Positions 25,694 to 57,784 of a DNA stretch of 64,000 bases are shown one piece after another. The stretch's first letter is position 1. Every line of letters begins with the position of its first letter. A model generated the notes under the pieces. That model made no database searches. It saw only the letters and a program-made list of their open reading frames with translations, and had not been told where the DNA came from. Position numbers and translations under genes: made by a program. This DNA is from Acidobacteriota bacterium (GTDB lineage Bacteria > Acidobacteriota > Thermoanaerobaculia > Multivoradales > Multivoraceae). The stretch covers positions 17-64,016 of the forward strand of contig JAYZDP010000152.1 in the NCBI GenBank assembly GCA_036337765.1, in the 5' to 3' direction.

Positions 25694-26428
25694 ATGACTG
25701 TCCGGGTCGCCATGTGGTCGGGGCCACGCAATATCTCGACCGCGATGATGCGCTCCTGGGGCTCCAGGGCGGACACCGTGGTCGTGGACGAGCCGTTCTA
25801 TGCGCACTACCTGCAGCAGACCGGCCTCGAGCATCCGGGCGCCGAAGAGATCATCGATCGAGGTCAGACCGATTGGCGAGACGTAGTCGCATCACTCTTC
25901 GAGGATCTTTCCGAGGGAAAGTCGGTGCAGTTTCAGAAGCAGATGACGCTACATCTCCTCGAGAGCATGGACCGCGGCTGGATCCACAACGTCGTGAACT
26001 GCTTCCTTATCCGCGAGCCCCGTGACGTGATTACTTCGTACGCCGCTAAGCGCCCGCATCTCGATCTTTCTGACCTCGGCTTCCTCCAGCAAGCCGAGCT
26101 TCACGCTTGGGTCCTCGAGCACACCGGACAAGACCCACCCATCGTCGACGCCCGCGACGTGCAGAACCACCCGGAGGCCGTCCTGGCGCGCCTGTGCGAG
26201 CGCATCGGCACCGCCTTCGACCCCGCCATGCTCTCGTGGCCGCCTGGCCGCCGCGACACCGACGGTATCTGGGCTCCCCACTGGTACACGTCGGTCGAGG
26301 CCTCTACGGGCTTCAACCCCTATCGCGAAAAGGGCCAGGACGTGCCCGCGGCCCTCGAGGGCATCTACAAGGTGGGCCTCGAGACATATCGCGAGCTCTA
26401 CGAGCAGAGAATCCGACCGGACGACTAA
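25694..26428 (+). CDS. Sulfotransferase-like P-loop family protein (BCAT-like-associated N-domain type)
   Basis: N-terminal MWSGPRNISTAMMRSW motif. About 245 aa. Immediately followed by a class IV aminotransferase. Confidence 0.45.
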   Translation: MTVRVAMWSGPRNISTAMMRSWGSRADTVVVDEPFYAHYLQQTGLEHPGAEEIIDRGQTDWRDVVASLFEDLSEGKSVQFQKQMTLHLLESMDRGWIHNVVNCFLIREPRDVITSYAAKRPHLDLSDLGFLQQAELHAWVLEHTGQDPPIVDARDVQNHPEAVLARLCERIGTAFDPAMLSWPPGRRDTDGIWAPHWYTSVEASTGFNPYREKGQDVPAALEGIYKVGLETYRELYEQRIRPDD

Positions 26429-42479: not shown

Positions 42480-44573
42480 CTACCGTTGCTGCGCGGATCG
42501 GAAGAGTCGTGGGCTCAGGGCATCGCCCGCGGCCACCAGCATTTCCACCTCGTTGGGGCCCGCGACCAGCGCCTTCTGGGCGACCAAGGCCGAGAAGCGC
42601 GCCTCGCCTGAGGCCGTAAGACGCCCATGGGCGAAGCCGGCCACCCGGCCGTTGACCGCGGCCACGAGATGCACCTCAGCGCCACCGGCTCCCGGCACCT
42701 TCACCGTCCCGGTGAGCTCTGCGGGAACATAGGTCCAGGCCGGATCGTAGGCCTCGAGCACGCGGCTCTGGTCCACCTGCCAGACGAGGCCGGGGGACTC
42801 TTCGAGGTTCAGCTCGTCGAGTCTCCGGCCTAGCAGAGAGCGATAGGGGCCGATGCCGATGAGCGACGCGACGCCGTCGCTCCAGTCGAAGAGCGACAGC
42901 CTACGCTCCACGGACGCGAGATCCGGATCGAATGCACCCGTGAAGGTGAGCACGCCTCCGAATCGGTCGCGAAGGGACTTGCGCTCAGGGAGCTGTGTCG
43001 CGGCGGAGCGGAGGCTGAGGCCGTCGAGGGCATACTCGCCCTGCGCCCCCACAACGTCGAGAATCGTCGGCAGCACGTCGACGGTGCGGGCGTTGCGGTC
43101 GTCGATCTCTCCCGCCTGCTGCGACGGATACTTGACGAACAGCGGTACGCGTAGGACGTCCTCGGGATGAGGCATCGAGCCCGGCAGCCGGCGGGAGCCC
43201 TGAGGCCAGTGACTGGAGCCGTGATCGCCGACTACGATCAGCAAGGCGCGATCCCACAGGTCGGCCTCCTTCAGCCGATCGACGAGCTCACCGATCAGCC
43301 GGTCGGCGAACGCGACCTGCAGCAGGTGCCGCTGATACGTCAGTAGGTTGAACCACGGATACTGAGCCCACAGCTCGCGTGGGTCGCCGCTGAGGAACGG
43401 CTCTCCCTTGTACACCTTCCCCGTTGGAAGGTAGTAGTACGGCGTGTGCGGCAGCAAGGAATGGAAGAAGTAGAGGCCCGGCTCCTCGGTGGGCTCGATC
43501 GCATCCAGGAACATACGGAAACGCTCCGCCCGCCGACGCTCATCCGCGGGAAGCGCACCCTGGTGCTGCGTCGGTAGCCGTAAGGAGTCATCGTCGGCAC
43601 CCAGGCGAAGTCGCCAGAAGTTGCCCCAGGCACCCTCGATCGACGGCAGTCGGTAGCGCCAGGCCTCGGGTGTGGCGGTGTGCAGCAGGACCACTCCCAT
43701 GTCCGCCATGAGTTGGGCGAGCCGGCGCGGTCTCGCCTCCTTCTCCGGCTGGAAGTCGCGGTTCGGAGGCGCGAGGCGCGACAGGGTCTCGATGACCCGC
43801 AGCTCGTGGCTTCCGGCCAAGAGACTGAAGAGGTTCTCTCGGTAGTTCGAGAGGATCGGAGCGACACCCAGGCTCGCGACCTTGCCGGAAAGGATCGAGC
43901 TCAGAGATTCCTCCGTACGCGCCCACACGGTGGTGCCATTGCGGTACCAGGTGGCACGCTCCGCCAGCTCCGCGAAGTTCGGGAAGGCCCTGGCATCGAT
44001 CTCGAGTCGCTCGTCCAGAAGTGACGTCAGGGGGAACTCGTCGAATACCAGCAACACGACGGGAAAAAGGTCGGCGATCTGTGCCGCTTCCACCTCGATG
44101 GACCCGGCTGCGAAGAAGCCACGCACCTCCAAGCGCGCGAAGAAGGCGGCAACGATCACGACCAGACCGTAGGCGAGGTAGCGCAGGTACAGACGCGTCG
44201 TCTCTCGGGTCGTCAGCCATGTCAGGAGCGGGATCGCAGCCCCGCCGAGCGCCACACAGAGCGCGGCCGGGAGGGCCGTCCGAACGAGGATCTCGAGAAC
44301 GAACAAACCTCCTAGCAGGCCAACAACCGCCGCATCGGCAATGATCGCGGACGACTCACTGAGGGCGAGGTGGACTACGCCATGCACCAACGCCAGCGCG
44401 ATCATCCCGCCGCCCGTCACGAGCACGACCACCAGGATGGCGTCGAGCCCGTCGGCACCCTGGTAGAGCAGGAACGGAATGTTCCCGGCTATGAGGTCGA
44501 ACAGGGGCTGGAGCACCGCCAGTCCGAAGACGGCCCAGGAAGGCGCAGACGCTCTCATCAGCTCTCGCACCAT
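42480..44573 (-). CDS. Membrane-anchored alkaline-phosphatase-superfamily protein (LTA-synthase/sulfatase-like)
   Basis: About six N-terminal TM helices followed by a sulfatase-like catalytic domain. Confidence 0.65.
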   Translation of the reverse strand: MVRELMRASAPSWAVFGLAVLQPLFDLIAGNIPFLLYQGADGLDAILVVVLVTGGGMIALALVHGVVHLALSESSAIIADAAVVGLLGGLFVLEILVRTALPAALCVALGGAAIPLLTWLTTRETTRLYLRYLAYGLVVIVAAFFARLEVRGFFAAGSIEVEAAQIADLFPVVLLVFDEFPLTSLLDERLEIDARAFPNFAELAERATWYRNGTTVWARTEESLSSILSGKVASLGVAPILSNYRENLFSLLAGSHELRVIETLSRLAPPNRDFQPEKEARPRRLAQLMADMGVVLLHTATPEAWRYRLPSIEGAWGNFWRLRLGADDDSLRLPTQHQGALPADERRRAERFRMFLDAIEPTEEPGLYFFHSLLPHTPYYYLPTGKVYKGEPFLSGDPRELWAQYPWFNLLTYQRHLLQVAFADRLIGELVDRLKEADLWDRALLIVVGDHGSSHWPQGSRRLPGSMPHPEDVLRVPLFVKYPSQQAGEIDDRNARTVDVLPTILDVVGAQGEYALDGLSLRSAATQLPERKSLRDRFGGVLTFTGAFDPDLASVERRLSLFDWSDGVASLIGIGPYRSLLGRRLDELNLEESPGLVWQVDQSRVLEAYDPAWTYVPAELTGTVKVPGAGGAEVHLVAAVNGRVAGFAHGRLTASGEARFSALVAQKALVAGPNEVEMLVAAGDALSPRLFRSAQQR

Positions 44574-44668
44574 CGAAGTGTGCTATTTAACGCTCCTCAG
44601 TGACAAGCGGGGCGCCGGCAGACGAGTTTGGGCCTCGAACAAAGACAAACACATCGTTGGAGACGCAG

Positions 44669-45937
44669 ATGTCTGACCAGAACCCCGAACTGTTCAACCT
44701 CGGCATGTCCGAAGAGGCGCAGCCACTGATGACCGCGGTGAAAAAGCACATCCGCGACAACGTCGAGCCGATCACCGAAGAGTTCTTCGCCCTTCAGGAG
44801 GGAAAGGAGGACCGCTGGACCTGGCATCCACGGCAGCTCGAGCTGCTCGAAGGAGCCAAGGACAAGGCCAAGGAGTCGGGGCTATGGAACTTCTTCCTGC
44901 CAGGCGCATCGGAGATCGGCAAGGGCCTGACCAACCTCGACTACGCCTACATCGCCGTCGAGCTCGGCAAATTCGGCCTGGCGTCAGAGACTCTCAACTG
45001 TTCGGCGCCCGACACCGGCAACATGGAAGTGCTCGAGCGCGTCGGGACGCCCGAGCAGCAGGAACAGTGGCTCAAGCCGCTGCTGAACGGGGAGATCCGC
45101 TCCGCATACGCCATGACCGAGCCGCACATGGCGTCGTCGGATGCGAAGAACATCTCGTGCAGCGCTGTTCTCGACGGCGACGAGTGGGTCATCAACGGCG
45201 AGAAGTACTACATCTCCGGCGCCGGCGACCCGCGCTGCAAGATCATGATCACGATGGTCAAGACCAGCCCCGACGCCCACCCCAGCCGCCAGCAGTCGCA
45301 GATCCTGGTGCCGAAGGACACGCCTGGTGTCGAGCTTCTCGAGGGCATGCAGGTATTCGGCAAGGACCACGCGCCGCGCGGCCACATGCACATCAAGTTC
45401 GACAACGTCCGCGTGCCGAAGGACAACATCCTGCTAGGCGAAGGCCGCGGCTTCGAGATCTCACAGGTGCGCCTCGGCCCCGGCCGCATCCACCACTGCA
45501 TGCGCTCGATCGGCAAGGCCGAGAAGGCACTGGAGCTGATGGTCAAGCGCGCCTCGACACGCCACGCCTTCGGCAAGCAGATCGTGCGACTCGGCAAGAA
45601 CCTCGAGGTCATCGCTCGCGCGCGCATCGAGATCACCGGCATGCGCCTGGCGGTGCTTCAGGCCGCCAAGGCGATGGACGTGCTTGGCAACCAGGAGGCC
45701 AGGGTCTACGTCAGCGCCGTCAAGGCGATGGTGCCGGAGAAGGTCTGCCAGATCATCGACGCCTCGATCCAGATGCACGGCGCCACCGGCATCTCGCAGT
45801 GGTCACCACTTGCAGACCTTTACACCGACATGCGGCACTTGCGTTTCGCCGACGGCCCCGACGAGGTCCATCACATGGTGGTGGGTCGCGCCGAGGTGCA
45901 AAAGCACGGCCTGTGGAACGTGGAGGTCCCCGGCTAG
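44669..45937 (+). CDS. Acyl-CoA dehydrogenase (ACAD10/11-like subgroup)
   Basis: GGAG RBS. ACAD fold motifs (YAMTEPHMASSD, CMRSIGKAEKALE). Confidence 0.85.
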   Translation: MSDQNPELFNLGMSEEAQPLMTAVKKHIRDNVEPITEEFFALQEGKEDRWTWHPRQLELLEGAKDKAKESGLWNFFLPGASEIGKGLTNLDYAYIAVELGKFGLASETLNCSAPDTGNMEVLERVGTPEQQEQWLKPLLNGEIRSAYAMTEPHMASSDAKNISCSAVLDGDEWVINGEKYYISGAGDPRCKIMITMVKTSPDAHPSRQQSQILVPKDTPGVELLEGMQVFGKDHAPRGHMHIKFDNVRVPKDNILLGEGRGFEISQVRLGPGRIHHCMRSIGKAEKALELMVKRASTRHAFGKQIVRLGKNLEVIARARIEITGMRLAVLQAAKAMDVLGNQEARVYVSAVKAMVPEKVCQIIDASIQMHGATGISQWSPLADLYTDMRHLRFADGPDEVHHMVVGRAEVQKHGLWNVEVPG

Positions 45938-52361: not shown

Positions 52362-52429
52362 CCGGCCCCGGTAGACAGCCAGTGCGGGTGTACGATCCGC
52401 AGCGCATACCTGGATCAAGGAGACTGCAC

Positions 52430-54058
52430 ATGGCTCAGCGACCCTCTCGGAGCTACGGGTTCACTCTACTGCCGGCGCTGTCGCTGCTGCTGGGCACCAC
52501 CGCCGGCGCCCAGCAGGAACCGGTCGACTTCGAGCGGCAGATCCGTCCGATCTTCGCTCGCTACTGCTACACCTGCCACGGACCGGACCGTGCGACCCGT
52601 GAGGCGGAGCTCCGACTCGATCGCAAAGAGTTCGCCTTCAAGGAGCTGGGCGCCGGCTACCACACGATCGTGCCAGGCAAGCCCGACGAGAGCGAGGTCT
52701 ATGCACTGATCTCGTCGGAGTTCGCAGAAGATCGCATGCCGCCGTACGAGGCGGGCGTCGAGCTGCCAGGCCGTGCGATCTCCATCATCCGTCGGTGGAT
52801 CGCGGAGGGCGCGAGCTGGCCCGACGGCATCGACGACAACCCGCTGCCGGCCTCCGCGAGACCGCCCGGAATCCCTCGGGTCCAACTGCCGGATGAGTCG
52901 ATCATCGTCCACACCCACGAGATCCCGCAGGTACGGGTGCGAGTGCTCACGAAGGGACTCTCCCATCCCTGGTCGATCTCATTCCTGCCAGAGGGCGACC
53001 TTCTCCTCACCGAGCGCAGCGGAGAGCTGCGTATGTACCGCGACGGAGTGCTCATGCCGGATCCGGTCGAGGGCGTCCCCACCGACATCGTCGCCCGCGG
53101 CCTGTCGGGGATGATGGAAGTCGCCGTTCATCCGGACTTCGCCGAGAACCAGACCATTTTTCTCACGTACACGCGCCAACTCGGCGAGCGCAACGGCACG
53201 GTGGCACTGGTGCGGGGACGTCTCGACCGCATGACGCTGACCGATGTCGAAGACGTCTTCGTGGCCGACCCTTGGATGGGCGAGGTGGACAGCGCCGATC
53301 CGAACGCCTTTCTCAGCTTCACCGCCGCCGCGCGCCTCGCCTTCGCACCCGACGGCACGCTCTTCATGTCGATGGGAGGCGCCTTCGGCGTCGAGCGCGA
53401 CGATGGCACCTCGAGCTTCTTCGGCAACGCCATGCTGGCGCAAGACCCGATGAGCCATGCAGGCAAGCTACTGCGGCTCAACCAGGACGGCTCCGCTCCG
53501 GCCGACAATCCGTTCCACGGCAAGGTGGGCTACAAGCCCGAGATCTACTCGATGGGGCACCGCAACCAGCAAGGCTTGGCGCTTCATCCCGAGACCGGCA
53601 TGCCCTTCGCGACCGAGCACGGCGTGCAGGGCGGCGACGAGCTCAACGCGATCGAGTCCGGGGGCAACTACGGCTGGCCCGTCGTCTCTTACGGCCGTCA
53701 CTACGACGGCCCACGCATCGCCAAGCAGTTCTGGCGGGACGGCTTCAAGGAACCCACGGTGTTCTGGGTGCCCTCGATCGGACCTTCGGGTTTGGCCTTC
53801 TACACCGGCGACAAGTTCCCGGAGTGGAAGGGCAACTTGTTCGCGGGCGCAATGATGGAGGGCCGGATCCCACGCACGGGAAGCCTGCAGCGGATCGCCT
53901 TCAACGAGCAGGGCGAGGAGCTTCAACGCGAGTCGATGCTCGGCGAGCTGCGCCAACGGATCCGCGACGTGCGCCAGGGCCCGGACGGCTTCATCTACCT
54001 CCTCACTGAGGAGAACCAGGCCGCCCTTCTGCGTCTCGAGCCCGTCACCGTCGAGTAG
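52430..54058 (+). CDS. Planctomycete-type cytochrome c domain fused to a PQQ-dependent sugar dehydrogenase (GSDH/sorbosone DH beta-propeller)
   Basis: AAGGAG RBS. Signal peptide. FERQIRPIFARYCYTCHGPD heme motif. GSDH motifs (LSHPWSISFLPEGDLLLTERSGELR, MGHRNQQGLALHP). Confidence 0.8.
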   Translation: MAQRPSRSYGFTLLPALSLLLGTTAGAQQEPVDFERQIRPIFARYCYTCHGPDRATREAELRLDRKEFAFKELGAGYHTIVPGKPDESEVYALISSEFAEDRMPPYEAGVELPGRAISIIRRWIAEGASWPDGIDDNPLPASARPPGIPRVQLPDESIIVHTHEIPQVRVRVLTKGLSHPWSISFLPEGDLLLTERSGELRMYRDGVLMPDPVEGVPTDIVARGLSGMMEVAVHPDFAENQTIFLTYTRQLGERNGTVALVRGRLDRMTLTDVEDVFVADPWMGEVDSADPNAFLSFTAAARLAFAPDGTLFMSMGGAFGVERDDGTSSFFGNAMLAQDPMSHAGKLLRLNQDGSAPADNPFHGKVGYKPEIYSMGHRNQQGLALHPETGMPFATEHGVQGGDELNAIESGGNYGWPVVSYGRHYDGPRIAKQFWRDGFKEPTVFWVPSIGPSGLAFYTGDKFPEWKGNLFAGAMMEGRIPRTGSLQRIAFNEQGEELQRESMLGELRQRIRDVRQGPDGFIYLLTEENQAALLRLEPVTVE

Positions 54059-54092
54059 AACAAAACAGAGAATTATAAGGGGGAGCAAGGAC

Positions 54093-54272
54093 ATGAAAGT
54101 TCTTGTAGGTTTAACCACTTTAGTTTTTCTCTCAACAGTGGTTTATGCATATTCAAGTTACGAGCATTCTAGAGACGGTTCCAGTGTTGCCTGTGGAGGT
54201 GAATATTCAAGTTACGAGCACTCCAGAGATGGAACTTCTGTTTGTGCCGGAGGCAGACATTCAAGTTACTAG
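54093..54272 (+). CDS. Small Sec-secreted tandem-repeat peptide (59 aa) encoded in an AT-rich islet
   Basis: AAGGGGGAG RBS. Signal MKVLVGLTTLVFLSTVVYA. Repeats YSSYEHSRDGSSVACGGE / YSSYEHSRDGTSVCAGGR / HSSY*. A/T-ending codons unlike every other gene in the window. Confidence 0.4.
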   Translation: MKVLVGLTTLVFLSTVVYAYSSYEHSRDGSSVACGGEYSSYEHSRDGTSVCAGGRHSSY

Positions 54273-54300
54273 CATTCTAGAGATGGGAGTATCCTCGCGG
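54152..54300 (+). repeat. Approximately 2.8 copies of a 54-bp tandem repeat (TATTCAAGTTACGAGCAYTCYAGAGAYGG...)
   Basis: Direct reading of the sequence. The third copy carries a GAG->TAG change that creates the stop. Confidence 0.7.
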
Positions 54301-54323
54301 AGCCAGCGGCTCAGGACGGTCAA

Positions 54324-54882
54324 GTGATGAATCTGTCGCGCAGCGGGGTGCTTCTCGAAAAGCCTCCGGTAGCAATCGGCACGAGGGTCCGAGTGGGATT
54401 TCAGGGACTGGAGGCCAGTGGAACGGTCGTACGAGAGATCAGCGCCGTCGGTTCCGCGAAGCACCTCGGGGCAGCCGTCCGTTTCGATGAGGTGCAGCAG
54501 TCGGGGGGATGGCTCGTTGGGTAGCGAACAGACCCCCAGAAGGGCTTCTCGCGTCCGCTCCGTCCATCTAGTTGCCTACACCGACAAGACTCGTGAGCGA
54601 GAAACGGCGTCGATCTCGTTGGGCAAGACGCTCGACCTGAGTCCTTTTGGCATTCGCATTGAAGTCAACGAAAGGCTGGAGGAGGGGGACCTTATCGAGC
54701 TCGAGATTGGCGTTGGCGACAAACTGATTCAAGCCGAGGCGCGAGTGGTTCACGTCCCTCCACTCTTCACCGATGAAGGGCTCCGTTTCGAAGTGGCCGA
54801 GGGCGGCTGCTTCAAGGTTGGTGCCGAGTTCACGAGCATTGCTGACGAGGACCGAGCCGTTCTCATCTCCCTTGCGGATTAG
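54324..54882 (+). CDS. Tandem PilZ-like protein (degenerate PilZ half + canonical PilZ) split by a frameshift at a G6 run (~54496-54501)
   Basis: Part A 54324..54524: GTRVRVGF...GTVVREI...AAVRFDEV. Part B in the +1 frame to 54882: PRRASRVR, DLSPFGIRIEV, ARVVHV. Confidence 0.5.
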
Positions 54883-55155
54883 CGCGACGAGCGACGAGCG
54901 GACGTATCCACCGCTAGAGAAGCGGATTGAGCAATCCGGATGTTCAGCGCTTCCTACCCGCGTTGAGGGGAAGCGCCCCGCGTTTACTCAAGTCACTGGC
55001 TGTCAAGTGGTCGGTGGCGTTGCCTACGGGCGAACGAGCGTTCGTCAAGTCCGGCACGAACGAGTTGCTCTCGGTCGAACGCGCATTGACCCTTCCGCGG
55101 GCCACTGTTACCTTCCGTCTCCCACACGATCTGAATTGACAGGGAGACCACATCC

Positions 55156-56346
<1,191 letters not shown>

Positions 56347-56368
56347 GGATCGAGCCGGGGATCGCCGG

Positions 56369-57784
56369 TCAGCCGGCCGGCTGCTCGACGAGAGAGCCGT
56401 CGGCCGGAACCGCTGGCCTCCTTCGCACCGCCGAGCGAAGGGCGGAACGCCACCAAACCAGGGCGACGACGGCCGATACCCAGCTACCGACGATGATCGC
56501 CATCCAGACGTACTGGATCGGCCGGTCGAAGGCAAAAGCGAAGATGCCGGCCAGCGGCACCGAAATCAATAGCACCCGCAACAGGCTCAGAACGAGCTCA
56601 GGGGTGCCACGGTCGAGGCCCTGCTGCGCTCTACCTAGAAGGATCGAGAACGGGAACGCGACGAACGCGAGTGTGGCGTAGCGCAGGTACTGGACCGCAA
56701 CGACACGAATCGCCTCGGAGTCCGTGAAGGGGGCGACCAACCAGGGCGCGAAAGCCAGAAAGAAGGCTGACATCGTGACCGCGATCAACACCGCCTGCTT
56801 GATCGCGTAGTTCGCGATCTCCTCCACCAGCTCGAGCCGCTTGGCGCCATAGAACATTCCGACCAGCGTGACGAGCGCCGACGCGATGGAGACGATCGGA
56901 AGCACTACGAGATGGTCGATGCGAGTTCCGACCTGCAGCCCTGCGACGGCGTCGGGGGAGTACTCTACGAGGATGCGGTTGAAGGTGCCGCCCCCGGCTG
57001 ACATCACCAAGAACGACAACGACGCCGGCGCGCCGATGCGAACGAGGTCGCGAACGATCTCGCTGCGGAGGCGGAAGTTGCGGTACGACAGGTCCACGTG
57101 GATTCGCTTCCTGATGAATAGCAGGTAGGCAAACGTCAACATCACAGCGGCCTGGGTGACGACGGTGGCGACGGCAGCGCCGCGAATGCCCATGTCGAGG
57201 CTGAAGATGAAGATCGGATCGAGCACAATGTTCGTTGCCGTGCCGATTCCCGAGATGATCACCGGTAACTTCACCTCGCCCTCGCCCGAGAAGAGCGATC
57301 GGAAGAGGATCGCCTGGACCTGGAAGACGAACCCTGCCACCACCACCGAGAAGTATTGCCAGGCGAACGGCAAGATCTCCTCGGGAACGCCGATTCCGAG
57401 TAGCAGGCGCTCCCCATAGACCAATCCGACTGACACGAAGCCGATCGTGAGCAGCACCCCGACCAGCAGCGCGTGCTGCGCGATTCGACTGGCCCGACGC
57501 TGATCCTTCGCGCCGATCGCCTGCGCGATCATCGCGGTAACGGCGCTGCCGAGCCCGAAGGTCGAGCCCATGGCCAGAAACAGCAGCGGCATGGTGAACG
57601 ACACCGCAATCAGGGCGTCGGGGCCGAGCATGCCGACGAACACCATGTCGGCGATCATGTAGGCGGTGTAGATCGACATGCCGACCATGATCGGCAGCGA
57701 CAGGGTCCACAGCGCCTTGCGCGGGTTGCGCTGGAACTCTTCCAGGCGCGCTCCGGCGCGGTCCTGATTCGCGGGTTCGCTCAT
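56369..57784 (-). CDS. MATE-family efflux transporter
   Basis: Twelve predicted TM helices. MATE N-terminal pattern (LWTLSLPIMVGMSIYTAYMIADMVFVG). Start chosen at MSEPANQ. Confidence 0.85.
   Translation of the reverse strand: MSEPANQDRAGARLEEFQRNPRKALWTLSLPIMVGMSIYTAYMIADMVFVGMLGPDALIAVSFTMPLLFLAMGSTFGLGSAVTAMIAQAIGAKDQRRASRIAQHALLVGVLLTIGFVSVGLVYGERLLLGIGVPEEILPFAWQYFSVVVAGFVFQVQAILFRSLFSGEGEVKLPVIISGIGTATNIVLDPIFIFSLDMGIRGAAVATVVTQAAVMLTFAYLLFIRKRIHVDLSYRNFRLRSEIVRDLVRIGAPASLSFLVMSAGGGTFNRILVEYSPDAVAGLQVGTRIDHLVVLPIVSIASALVTLVGMFYGAKRLELVEEIANYAIKQAVLIAVTMSAFFLAFAPWLVAPFTDSEAIRVVAVQYLRYATLAFVAFPFSILLGRAQQGLDRGTPELVLSLLRVLLISVPLAGIFAFAFDRPIQYVWMAIIVGSWVSAVVALVWWRSALRSAVRRRPAVPADGSLVEQPAG

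What the first reader, a model, noticed from the sequence alone, without database searches (positions are those of the whole stretch)
54059..54323. AT-rich islet encoding a small secreted tandem-repeat peptide with foreign codon usage
In a ~68% GC genome this ~250-bp stretch is ~40% GC. It begins immediately after the stop of the cytochrome-GSDH gene. It contains an excellent Shine-Dalgarno (AAGGGGGAG) and then an ORF for a Sec signal peptide (MKVLVGLTTLVFLSTVVYA). After that come repeated YSSYEHSRDG(S/T)SV(A)C(A)GG units. They are generated by a 54-bp DNA tandem repeat (~2.8 copies), and the third copy is cut by a GAG->TAG change. The codons used (AAA, GTT, CTT, TTA, TTT, TCA...) are the opposite of the GC3-saturated usage everywhere else in the window. 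This points to recent horizontal acquisition, or to a mini-gene under very different constraints. Candidates include a secreted Tyr/Ser/Cys-rich adhesive, signalling or RiPP-like precursor peptide, or a phage-derived moron. It sits directly upstream of a PilZ (c-di-GMP effector) gene.
Basis: seen in the sequence. Interest (0 to 1): 0.7.

Follow-up and report, generated by a model that had tools for sequence, protein, structure and literature searches.

The report
Captured fragment of a foreign gene
The AT-rich islet is a real ~230-bp piece of a small secreted-repeat-protein gene from a low-GC marine methylotroph (Methylophilaceae type), pasted into the chromosome of a high-GC marine acidobacterium where it replaced the start of a PilZ gene; it is most likely a recombination scar, not a working mini-gene.

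Summary
Window 54059-54290 is the only stretch below 52% GC in 64 kb (42% against 66%). It carries a Shine-Dalgarno site, a 59-aa ORF with a Sec-type signal peptide, and 2.6 copies of a 54-nt (18-aa) repeat. Its origin can be named: 54077-54290 is 90% identical in DNA (195/217) to a 76-aa gene of a marine Methylophilaceae MAG (32% GC). That gene belongs to an unnamed family of small secreted repeat proteins (64 cluster representatives; no Pfam or NCBIfam model). The window copy is a fragment. Homology stops 33 nt into repeat 3, the C-terminal cap is missing, and a TAG replaces the CAG/GAG codon. On the left, similarity to donor-type DNA runs through the GSDH stop codon (microhomology GAGTAGAA). 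On the right, the insert abuts a PilZ gene that has lost its 5' end and RxxxR motif. Two separate assemblies of a Mediterranean metagenome carry the same islet and both junctions, with 7 SNPs against the window, so it is not a chimera. No phage, plasmid, RiPP or mobile-element signal was found. Best reading: recent cross-phylum capture of a gene fragment by illegitimate recombination, probably non-functional. Interest is modest.

The parts
52382..54058 (+). Host gene for a cytochrome c (PSCyt1) + PQQ-type glucose/sorbosone dehydrogenase (GSDH). Its last codons, ...CCC GTC ACC GTC GAG TAG (PVTVE*), form the left microhomology.
   Evidence: Pfam GSDH 2.8e-108 and PSCyt1 3.1e-15. Relatives end ...LEPV plus a variable tail, whereas the window ends LEPV-TVE*. 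GC3 is 0.85.
54042..54066 (.). Left junction zone. Host and donor-type sequences are too alike here to place the crossover. It holds a perfect 8-nt match, GAGTAGAA, inside a 12/16 extended microhomology, and a 15/17 match to a glmS-3'-end-like element that flanks the gene in donors.
   Evidence: The alignments give L171/L172 as ...ATAACTGTGGAGTAGAAGGAAACAG and the window as ...GTCACCGTCGAGTAGAACAAAACAG. L081 5269-5285, CCGTCACAGTGGAGTAG, matches window 54042-54058.
54059..54290 (+). Foreign AT-rich segment (41.8% GC). It comprises the donor-type intergenic leader, the SD and the 5' 198 nt of a small secreted repeat-protein gene.
   Evidence: 195/217 nt (90%) identity of 54077-54290 to L081 4985-5201, a Methylophilaceae MAG at 32% GC. 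54059-54076 resembles the leader in L171/L172. It is the only sub-52% GC stretch in the window.
54077..54085 (+). Shine-Dalgarno AAGGGGGAG, 7 nt upstream of the ATG. It was inherited from the donor (AAAGGGGAG in L081).
   Evidence: Sequence and alignment.
54093..54272 (+). 59-aa ORF. Signal peptide 54093-54149 (MKVLVGLTTLVFLSTVVYA), repeat 1 54150-54203, repeat 2 54204-54257, start of repeat 3 54258-54269, and a premature TAG at 54270-54272.
   Evidence: It is 88% aa identical to P0001 (E 9.5e-30). Donors have CAG where the window has TAG.
54258..54290 (+). Repeat 3, only 33 of 54 nt. Homology to donor genes ends at 54290, so the last ~30 nt of the donor gene (…DVATGWESN*) are absent.
   Evidence: The BLAST alignment ends at 54290. 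Alignments.
54214..54214 (+). Population SNP A/G inside the islet. TAC->TGC, Tyr41Cys, at the family's invariant aromatic position.
   Evidence: Window against L169/L170. Repeat position 4 is Y48/W11/F1/C1.
54247..54247 (+). Population SNP C/T inside the islet. GCC->GTC, Ala52Val, a variant also seen in donor-type genes.
   Evidence: P0072, P0073 and P0031 have VCVGG.
54291..54524 (+). Remnant of host gene PilZ1. The native GC-rich sequence resumes at 54291. Gene callers start it at ATG 54327 (65 aa). The NLSRSG (D/NxSxxG) motif is present, but the RxxxR motif and about 20 N-terminal profile positions are missing. It is in the same frame as the small ORF.
   Evidence: The Pfam PilZ match starts at profile position 20 and scores 21.9 bits, below the 22.5 cut-off. 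In the relative L176 the codon equivalent to ATG 54327 is GTC and the ORF continues upstream. Both population SNPs here are non-synonymous.
54517..54882 (+). Host gene PilZ2. It is intact, with RRASRVR and DLSPFG motifs, and is not part of the insert.
   Evidence: Pfam PilZ 7.7e-08, profile 3-98/102. The start at 54517 is as called on L169. Homologues of 53-98% identity exist.

Best explanation
A short piece of DNA from a low-GC marine bacterium of the Methylophilaceae (OM43-like) type was integrated into the chromosome of a high-GC marine acidobacterium of the Thermoanaerobaculia type. The piece carried the end of a glmS-3'-end-like element, a 26-35-nt leader with its SD, and the first 66 codons of a small secreted 18-aa-repeat protein gene.

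Integration was by illegitimate (microhomology-guided) recombination, not by a dedicated mobile element. The left crossover lies in a stretch where the end of the host GSDH gene (…ACCGTCGAGTAGAA) happens to resemble the donor element (…ACTGTGGAGTAGAA). The right crossover lies 33 nt into repeat 3 of the foreign gene and inside the host PilZ1 coding region. The same event, or a later deletion, removed the host intergenic region and the 5' end of PilZ1.

The result is two broken genes side by side. The foreign gene has lost its C-terminal cap and carries a nonsense codon. PilZ1 has lost its start and its RxxxR c-di-GMP-binding motif. The insert is recent, because it is not ameliorated, but it predates the split of two strains about 0.8% apart.

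Shown: the foreign origin, the truncation of both genes, presence in two strains, and the absence of mobile-element features.

Inferred: the recombination mechanism, and that the 59-aa ORF is no longer under selection. It could still be translated from GSDH read-through, because no terminator intervenes and its SD, ATG and signal peptide are intact.
For: - Foreign origin. There is 90% nt identity over 217 nt to a Methylophilaceae gene plus its SD, and 88% aa identity at E 9.5e-30. GC3 is 0.27 against a host value of 0.83 +/- 0.04. The family is widespread: 64 representatives at E<1e-3.
- Real, not a chimera. L169 and L170, two assemblies of SRR5007147/SAMN05992386 from a Mediterranean water column, contain the islet, both junctions and the TAG. 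They carry 7 SNPs against the window, spread over the flanks (5) and the islet (2). The flanks have the same tetranucleotide signature, r 0.97-0.98.
- Truncation of the foreign gene. Homology ends at 54290, and the GWESN-type cap seen in full-length members is absent.
- Truncation of PilZ1. The Pfam match begins at profile position 20. The relative L176 has a non-start GTC at the position of the window's ATG, and its ORF continues upstream.
- Left microhomology. See the alignments.
- No mobile machinery. There are no flanking TSD or TIR and no tRNA. The genes within +/-10 kb are all metabolic or transport genes.
- Relaxed constraint. SNPs in intact genes are 3/3 synonymous (GSDH 2, PilZ2 1). 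SNPs in the two remnants are 4/4 non-synonymous, including Tyr->Cys at an invariant aromatic position.
- The mechanism has an experimental precedent. Foreign single strands integrate at extended microhomologies that may contain mismatches (bioRxiv 10.1101/2023.11.22.568220).
Against: - The pre-insertion ('empty') allele was not found. The right-junction microhomology and the size of the host deletion are therefore unknown.
- The SD, ATG, signal peptide and two complete repeats are intact. Natural two-repeat members of 58 aa exist (P0004, P0026), so a functional 40-aa mature peptide cannot be excluded.
- The SNP argument rests on 7 sites (Fisher p about 0.03). One of the two islet SNPs (A52V) is a variant tolerated in the family.
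- The 232-bp insert is larger than the 3-100 bp described for short-patch events.
- In donors the gene sits in a cassette-like array next to recombinase or resolvase genes. A site-specific route followed by a deletion is therefore possible.
- L169 and L170 derive from one read set, so independent support amounts to one additional sample.
Confidence: 0.65

Rival explanations
1. Domesticated mini-gene. The captured fragment is expressed, co-transcribed with the GSDH gene, and exported. It is kept by selection as a two-repeat secreted or periplasmic peptide, and the TAG was selected to prevent a toxic fusion of signal peptide, repeats and PilZ.
For: The SD, ATG, signal peptide and two full repeats are intact. 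No terminator was predicted between GSDH and the ORF. Natural 58-aa two-repeat members exist. The ORF is retained in two strains. Window-versus-donor divergence is mostly synonymous or conservative, 9 synonymous and 8 non-synonymous codons.
Against: The family's C-terminal cap is missing, and repeat 3 shows Tyr->His and a stop. Both within-population SNPs are non-synonymous, one at an invariant aromatic residue. The low dN/dS against L081 mostly reflects divergence among donors before transfer, because the outgroup L171 shares many window states. The insert is too young for intactness to carry weight.
Confidence: 0.15
2. Site-specific insertion of a mobile gene cassette that targets the glmS 3' end. 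It used the look-alike GSDH 3' end as a secondary site, and a later deletion removed the cassette's 3' part and the PilZ1 5' end.
For: In L081 the gene lies just downstream of glmS in an array of small modules. These are bounded by ~100-nt repeats and imperfect palindromes that contain copies of the glmS end (GTCACAGTGGAGTAG), with a recombinase fragment next door. The P0003 homologue is next to a resolvase gene. The window's left junction coincides with a 15/17 match to that core.
Against: The 17-mer match alone is not significant (E 5.2). The window has no recombinase gene, second core copy or palindrome. The window leader matches only the 26-35 nt directly upstream of the gene, not the ~190-nt element of L081. 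This route also needs an extra deletion event.
Confidence: 0.15
3. Assembly or binning artefact: a chimeric join, or contaminating low-GC reads stitched into an acidobacterial contig.
For: The donor and host lineages co-occur in marine plankton. The GSDH-PilZ adjacency is not seen in any of 24 related genomes. The insert has roughly the length of a read.
Against: The same insert and both junctions appear in two other assemblies made with different assemblers. SNPs relative to the window lie in both the flanks and the insert. The flanks are compositionally one genome. There is no long shared k-mer at the junctions that would mislead a de Bruijn assembler.
Confidence: 0.03
4. Phage-derived moron or RiPP precursor.
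For: The gene is small and AT-rich with its own SD, and the peptide is Cys/Tyr/Ser-rich and repetitive.
Against: There are no relatives in IMG/VR, INPHARED phages or PLSDB plasmids. PHROG hits are marginal, the best being 7.7e-05 on the signal-peptide region. There are no phage, maturation or transport genes within +/-10 kb. The N-terminus is a Sec signal peptide, not a RiPP leader.
Confidence: 0.02

Closest known systems
Unnamed family of small secreted 18-aa tandem-repeat proteins. Examples: MDB4039976.1 (hypothetical protein N9489_00810, Methylophilaceae bacterium, here P0001) and MBL7556576.1 (Pseudobdellovibrionaceae, P0083).
   Same: Signal peptide ending VYA|Y. Repeats Y-S-S-Y-x-H-S-R-D-G-x-S-V with alternating ACGG and CAGG endings. 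88% aa and 90% nt identity to P0001, and the same SD.
   Different: The window copy stops 33 nt into repeat 3, lacks the C-terminal …V(A)xGW(E/D)(S/G)(N/D) cap, has a TAG in repeat 3, and sits in a 66% GC genome of another phylum. The family has no Pfam or NCBIfam model and no PDB-like fold, so its function is unknown.
[quoted passage not shown] 2016, as summarised in bioRxiv 10.1101/2023.11.22.568220).
   Same: Fully heterologous DNA is integrated without a homologous anchor. Recipient DNA is replaced at the same time, and a junction lies at an extended microhomology containing mismatches (left junction).
   Different: SPDIR patches are described as 3 to ~100 bp, whereas this insert is ~232 bp. 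The right-junction microhomology cannot be assessed. Competence of the host is unknown. This is a natural cross-phylum case seen in metagenomes, not a laboratory event.
PilZ-domain c-di-GMP receptors (Pfam PF07238)
   Same: The ORF right of the insert keeps the D/NxSxxG motif (NLSRSG) and the C-terminal beta-barrel part of the domain. An intact PilZ gene follows.
   Different: The remnant lacks the RxxxR motif and the first ~19 profile positions, and it scores just below Pfam's cut-off. It is collateral damage of the insertion, not a partner of the small ORF.
Integron-type or att-site gene cassettes downstream of glmS
   Same: In the donor-type genome the gene is one of several small modules after glmS. 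The modules are separated by imperfect palindromes that repeat the glmS end.
   Different: The window has no such palindrome, no second core and no integrase. The elements do not fit the integron attC core consensus well by eye. This was not tested further.

Membership tests
Small secreted 18-aa repeat protein family (P0001-like, unnamed) | Significant sequence similarity to family members | tested here: met
   E 9.5e-30 and 88% identity to P0001. 64 representatives at E<1e-3, 31 of them at E<1e-10.
Small secreted 18-aa repeat protein family (P0001-like, unnamed) | N-terminal Sec-type signal peptide | tested here: inconclusive
   MKVLVGLTTLVFLSTVVYA|Y has the n-region K, a hydrophobic core and V-x-A at -3/-1 by eye, and it aligns with the signal peptides of members. 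No SignalP-type predictor was available.
Small secreted 18-aa repeat protein family (P0001-like, unnamed) | At least two repeats Y-x-x-[YW]-x-[HT]-S-x-D-G-x-x-V-[AC]-[CA]-G-G with alternating ACGG/CAGG | tested here: met
   Two complete units fit the consensus derived from 81 units.
Small secreted 18-aa repeat protein family (P0001-like, unnamed) | C-terminal cap after the last repeat (…DV[AC]x[GQR]W[EDN][SG][NDS]) | tested here: not met
   Homology ends at 54290 and the cap is absent. The ORF ends …GGRHSSY*. The window therefore holds a truncated copy, not a full member.
PilZ domain (PF07238), for the ORF right of the insert | RxxxR motif at the N-terminus of the domain | tested here: not met
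   The match starts at profile position 20, and there is no RxxxR in the native sequence 54291-54326.
PilZ domain (PF07238), for the ORF right of the insert | D/NxSxxG motif and a score above Pfam's gathering threshold | tested here: inconclusive
   NLSRSG is present, but the score is 21.9 bits against a cut-off of 22.5.
RiPP precursor peptide | Neighbouring modification, protease or export genes and a leader-core architecture | tested here: not met
   The neighbours are a PQQ dehydrogenase, GSDH, PilZ, a thiolase, MatE, a Mo-oxidoreductase and MFS. The N-terminus looks like a Sec signal peptide.
Phage moron / prophage cargo | Location in a prophage, or homologues in phage genomes | tested here: not met
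   There are no tblastn-confirmed relatives in IMG/VR or INPHARED, only marginal PHROG hits, and no phage genes nearby.
Transposable element / MITE | Terminal inverted repeats and target-site duplication flanking the insert | tested here: not met
   The repeat finder on 53950-54450 gave only a 10-nt 90% inverted pair at 53958/54295 (chance level) and the internal tandem repeat.
Illegitimate-recombination (DIR/SPDIR-type) insertion-deletion | Heterologous insert with (extended) microhomology at both junctions and replacement of recipient DNA | tested here: inconclusive
   The left junction has GAGTAGAA (8/8) within a 12/16 stretch. Loss of the PilZ1 5' end is shown. The right-junction microhomology cannot be tested without the empty allele.
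Genuine chromosomal feature (as opposed to an assembly chimera) | The same junctions in separate assemblies or strains | tested here: met
   L169 and L170 carry both junctions and differ from the window by 7 SNPs. They come from one read set assembled twice.

The most novel reading that the evidence does not exclude
The fragment is not junk. The acidobacterium expresses it from GSDH read-through as an exported 40-aa two-repeat peptide, so a truncated gene from another phylum has been domesticated. In this reading the parent family is a new class of periplasmic beta-hairpin repeat proteins rich in Tyr, His, Asp and Cys, possibly binding a metal or cofactor. These proteins would travel as cassettes behind glmS in streamlined marine methylotrophs. 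The landing site beside two PQQ-type dehydrogenase genes would then be more than coincidence.
Probability: 0.1. Interest if true: 0.55.

Novelty: new member of a known kind. Interest (0 to 1): 0.33.

Why it matters
This is a clean natural example of something mostly known from laboratory transformation experiments. A few hundred bases of completely unrelated DNA, from a betaproteobacterial methylotroph, became fixed in the core chromosome of a member of another phylum, a marine acidobacterium. No mobile element was involved, one junction lies at a microhomology, and a host gene was damaged in the process. The donor type is identifiable at 90% identity and the insert is seen in two strains. The locus could therefore be used to date and track such events in the ocean.

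It also draws attention to an unannotated family of small secreted repeat proteins that appears to be mobile in low-GC marine bacteria. For annotating this genome the practical message is simple. The 59-aa ORF and the 65-aa 'PilZ' ORF should both be treated as probable pseudogene remnants, and automated callers mis-call the islet as a 60-aa ORF in another frame.

Tried and rejected
- TRF on 53900-54500 found no array. The copies are too diverged in their 3' halves, so the repeat finder and manual alignment were used instead.
- Rfam at E<=10 gave only a meaningless lncRNA hit at 54404-54551. The islet is not a known RNA.
- Promoter and terminator scans of 53800-55200 found nothing.
- Exact-protein look-ups failed for the 59-aa ORF, the GSDH and the alternative-frame 60-aa ORF of the window. 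The window's own contig is not in that collection.
- The genome-contig scan with GSDH gave at best 67% aa identity ('Ca. Multivorans', Thermoanaerobaculia and Holophagales MAGs). None of these relatives has PilZ or the peptide downstream, so no empty site was found.
It found no close relative and no PilZ.
- The right-junction 25-mer is absent from IMG/VR.
- Pfam, NCBIfam and PHROGs gave no credible family for the peptide. The weak leads were the RtxA repeat PF07634 in P0009 (22.3 bits) and RCC1_2 in P0002 (E 0.039).
- An AlphaFold2 model of P0001 reached pLDDT 73.6 in one model of five and shows a helix plus six short strands. Foldseek against PDB found nothing at E<1.
- PilZ1 and PilZ2 show no BLASTP similarity to each other, so PilZ1 is not a recent duplicate of PilZ2.
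- The relative L176 has PilZ1-PilZ2 in tandem, but its contig ends 2 nt before the codon equivalent to 54327. The ancestral 5' end could therefore not be read.
- Rejected: that the in-frame continuity of the small ORF with PilZ1 has a meaning. This happens by chance one time in three, and a secreted PilZ makes no biological sense.
Full report

Yes.
- The window is 66.2% GC. Among 200-nt windows (mean 66.2%, sd 3.6%), the only run below 52% is 53961-54350, with a minimum of 42%.
- Segment 54059-54290 is 41.8% GC.
- It starts right after the stop codon (54056-54058) of a gene with Pfam GSDH (2.8e-108) and PSCyt1 cytochrome c domains.
- AAGGGGGAG lies at 54077-54085, 7 nt before an ATG at 54093. 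The ORF 54093..54272 encodes MKVLVGLTTLVFLSTVVYA followed by YSSYEHSRDGSSVACGGE, YSSYEHSRDGTSVCAGGR and HSSY*.
- The repeat finder reports three in-register 54-nt copies, 72% and 61% identical to the first. TRF does not score them.
- In the first 30 nt of units 1 and 2, all four differences are synonymous third positions. That was the first hint of a real coding sequence.
- GC3 of the ORF is 0.27, against 0.83 +/- 0.04 for 41 long host ORFs.

**2. What is it?**

A word-indexed search of 5.8 billion proteins returned six relatives. The best is P0001: 76 aa, 88% identity, E 9.5e-30, annotated 'hypothetical protein N9489_00810 [Methylophilaceae bacterium]'.

An exhaustive HMMER search of 1.84 billion cluster representatives found 64 proteins at E<1e-3 and 31 at E<1e-10. 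Most are 54-110 aa: a signal peptide plus 2-3 units of an 18-aa repeat. Some are 200-600 aa with 4-8 units behind an unrelated N-terminal region.

The consensus from 81 units is Y-[ST]-S-[YW]-x-[HT]-S-[R..]-D-G-x-x-V-[AC]-[CA]-G-G. Units alternate between …VACGG and …VCAGG. Short members usually end in a cap such as …DVATGWESN.

The family has no Pfam, NCBIfam or credible PHROG model. An AlphaFold2 model of P0001 (pLDDT 73.6) shows six short strands and has no PDB neighbour. Its function is unknown.

**3. The islet is foreign DNA, and only a fragment of the gene.**

At the DNA level, window 54077-54290 aligns to L081 4985-5201 with 195/217 identities (90%). L081 is contig JAOKBJ010000001.1 of GCA_028244835.1, 31.7% GC over 10 kb. 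The alignment covers the SD, the ATG, the signal peptide, repeats 1-2 and the first 33 nt of repeat 3. It stops at 54290.

The donor-type gene continues …GATGTTGCTACTGGATGGGAAAGCAATTAA, whereas the window continues ATCCTCGCGGAGCC…, which is GC-rich host sequence. The copy therefore lacks its last ~30 nt, which encode the cap.

In repeat 3 it also carries TAT->CAT (Tyr->His) and TAG where donors have CAG.

Against L081 there are 9 synonymous and 8 non-synonymous codon differences. Many window states are shared with the more distant L171 homologue, so the true donor was a sister lineage of L081 rather than L081 itself.

The GC content of the window part (41.9%) equals that of the L081 counterpart (40.9%), so there is no detectable amelioration.

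**4. The junctions.**

*Left junction.*
- In L171/L172 (homologue P0004, 35-37% GC) the gene lies 26 nt after …ATAACTGTGGAGTAG. The leader there, AAGGAAACAGTGATTTTAAGGGAGA, resembles the window's AACAAAACAGAGAATTATAAGGGGGAG.
- GTGGAGTAG is the end of glmS (…KSVTVE*) in L081. A second copy, CCGTCACAGTGGAGTAG, follows the gene there.
- The window's GSDH ends CCGTCACCGTCGAGTAG (PVTVE*), a 15/17 match to that copy.
- Similarity to donor-type DNA therefore runs through the GSDH stop codon, and the crossover lies somewhere in 54042-54066. The perfect shared core is GAGTAGAA.
- GSDH relatives end …LEPV followed by a variable tail (D*, ETAEEEETTAG* and others). The TVE* tail could be native, giving a fortuitous microhomology, or donor-derived, with the crossover at CCGTC. 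I favour the first, because ACC GTC use host-type codons in an otherwise unameliorated insert. I cannot exclude the second.

*Right junction.*
- The host sequence resumes inside a PilZ gene. The translation from 54273 matches Pfam PilZ only from profile position 20, at 21.9 bits. It has NLSRSG (D/NxSxxG) but no RxxxR.
- In a related organism (L176; PilZ2 62% identical) a PilZ1 homologue sits directly upstream of PilZ2. Its codon equivalent to the window's ATG 54327 is GTC, which is not a start, and the ORF runs off the contig.
- The window's PilZ1 has therefore lost its 5' end. PilZ2 (54517-54882) is intact.

**5. Is it an artefact?**

No. A search with the PilZ1 remnant found one near-identical protein (P0070) on two short ENA contigs, L169 and L170. 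L169 is HARO18-2_SAMN05992386 scaffold_321792. L170 is SRR5007147 k127_317500, from PRJNA352798. That project is the Mediterranean depth-profile metagenome study.

Both contigs span the end of GSDH, the whole islet, both junctions, the TAG, PilZ1 and the start of PilZ2. They differ from the window at 7 of 904 positions:
- two synonymous sites in GSDH;
- two sites in the islet (54214, Tyr41Cys; 54247, Ala52Val);
- two non-synonymous sites in PilZ1;
- one synonymous site in PilZ2.

Another contig of that sample is 99.3% identical to window 55015-57437. The flanks of the islet share one tetranucleotide signature, r 0.97-0.98. The insert is thus a genuine feature of a marine acidobacterial population and is older than the split of these strains.

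Caveat: L169 and L170 come from one read set, so this amounts to one extra sample.

**6. Functional or not?**

SNPs in intact genes are 3/3 synonymous. SNPs in the two remnants are 4/4 non-synonymous (Fisher p about 0.03, tiny numbers). Tyr41Cys hits a position that is aromatic in 60 of 61 units, while Ala52Val is a variant also found in donors. Together with the missing cap, Tyr->His and the stop in repeat 3, this favours neutral decay.

Against that, the SD, ATG, signal peptide and two repeats are intact, no terminator separates the ORF from GSDH, and natural two-repeat proteins of 58 aa exist. Expression of a 40-aa exported peptide is therefore possible. I put functional retention at about 0.15.

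**7. How did it get there?**

No mobile machinery was found.
- The insert has no TSD or TIR.
- The window has no tRNA gene.
- The genes within +/-10 kb are a sulfatase, an acyl-CoA dehydrogenase, a beta-lactamase-fold protein, an aldehyde dehydrogenase, a PQQ dehydrogenase, GSDH, PilZ, a thiolase, MatE, a Mo-oxidoreductase, MFS, an enoyl-CoA hydratase and an MBL-fold protein.
- The family has no relatives in IMG/VR, INPHARED phages or PLSDB plasmids.

The simplest mechanism is integration of a free DNA fragment by double illegitimate recombination, with replacement of host DNA. Such events at extended microhomologies that tolerate mismatches are documented experimentally in Acinetobacter baylyi. 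The short-patch form is described as 3 to ~100 bp, so the present 232-bp patch is larger.

There is an alternative. In L081 the gene is one of several small modules downstream of glmS. These are separated by ~100-nt repeats and imperfect palindromes that repeat the glmS end, with a recombinase fragment adjacent. The P0003 homologue is next to a resolvase gene. A site-specific cassette that used the look-alike GSDH end, followed by a deletion, is possible (about 0.15).

**8. Comparison with what is known, and verdict.**

The ORF is a truncated copy of an unnamed 'hypothetical protein' family. It meets the similarity and repeat criteria but fails the C-terminal-cap criterion. The neighbouring 'PilZ' fails the RxxxR criterion. 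RiPP, phage-moron, MITE and chimera readings were tested and not met.

Its functional speculations and the implied link with PilZ are not supported.

As a kind of thing, namely a horizontally acquired gene fragment left by illegitimate recombination, it is known. The particular cross-phylum case and the protein family are new but of modest interest (0.33).

Noticed in passing
L081 4779-5950 (Methylophilaceae MAG JAOKBJ010000001.1): Downstream of glmS there is an array of small modules: the repeat-protein gene, a 95-aa recombinase fragment and a 73-aa ORF. They are separated by ~60-106-nt direct repeats and by imperfect palindromes (TAAACATGTACGAGCGAAA…GTCACAGTGGAGTAG…TTTTGCTTGTACATGTTTA) that duplicate the 3' end of glmS. 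It looks like a cassette array or repeated integrations at a glmS att site.
   Followed up: partly
Family proteins P0001-P0069: Within one protein the variable repeat positions 5 and 8 are usually the same in every unit. Examples are all Q/R in P0001, V/R in P0004, K/Y in P0022 and Q/I in P0018. They differ between proteins. In the window, units 1 and 2 nevertheless differ at synonymous sites. This suggests either selection for identical units or old gene conversion. Units also alternate strictly between …VACGG and …VCAGG, giving a 36-aa super-repeat.
   Followed up: no
window 54300-55150: The PilZ1/PilZ2 region has lower GC (57-63%) and lower GC3 (0.66-0.69) than typical genes of the window (GC3 0.83). 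It may itself be an older acquisition or a weakly expressed locus. GSDH-PilZ adjacency is absent from all 24 related genomes examined.
   Followed up: partly
L176 1-3 (ZHEN22-1_SAMN12826203 scaffold_413489): The contig of the related organism breaks 2 nt before the codon equivalent to window 54327. This is about 35 nt from the position equivalent to the islet's right junction. It is possibly coincidence, or possibly a sign of strain-variable sequence upstream of PilZ1 in that lineage too.
   Followed up: no
L169/L170 265-447 = window 54145-54327: Automated gene calling on the public contigs annotates the islet as a 60-aa ORF in the wrong frame (MHIQVTSILE…). It misses the 59-aa signal-peptide ORF, and that is why the real peptide is not in the protein collection for this organism.
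   Followed up: yes
P0040 (6519 aa), P0009 (222 aa): A giant 6519-aa protein contains 12 stretches matching the repeat. P0009 combines DUF4124 with the repeats and gives a borderline hit to the Pfam 'RtxA repeat' (PF07634, 22.3 bits against a cut-off of 20.8). P0002 gives a weak RCC1_2 hit (E 0.039). These are possible distant links for the 18-aa unit.
   Followed up: no
window 25841-26090 and 44551-44760: These are the next-lowest GC stretches in the window (55-56%). They are far milder than the islet.
   Followed up: no
window 54247 and L081/L174: The C/T polymorphism inside the islet (Ala/Val52) is at the same site that differs between the two donor-type alleles, L081 (GCG) and L174/L175 (GTG). 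This may be coincidence or a mutable or tolerated site.
   Followed up: no
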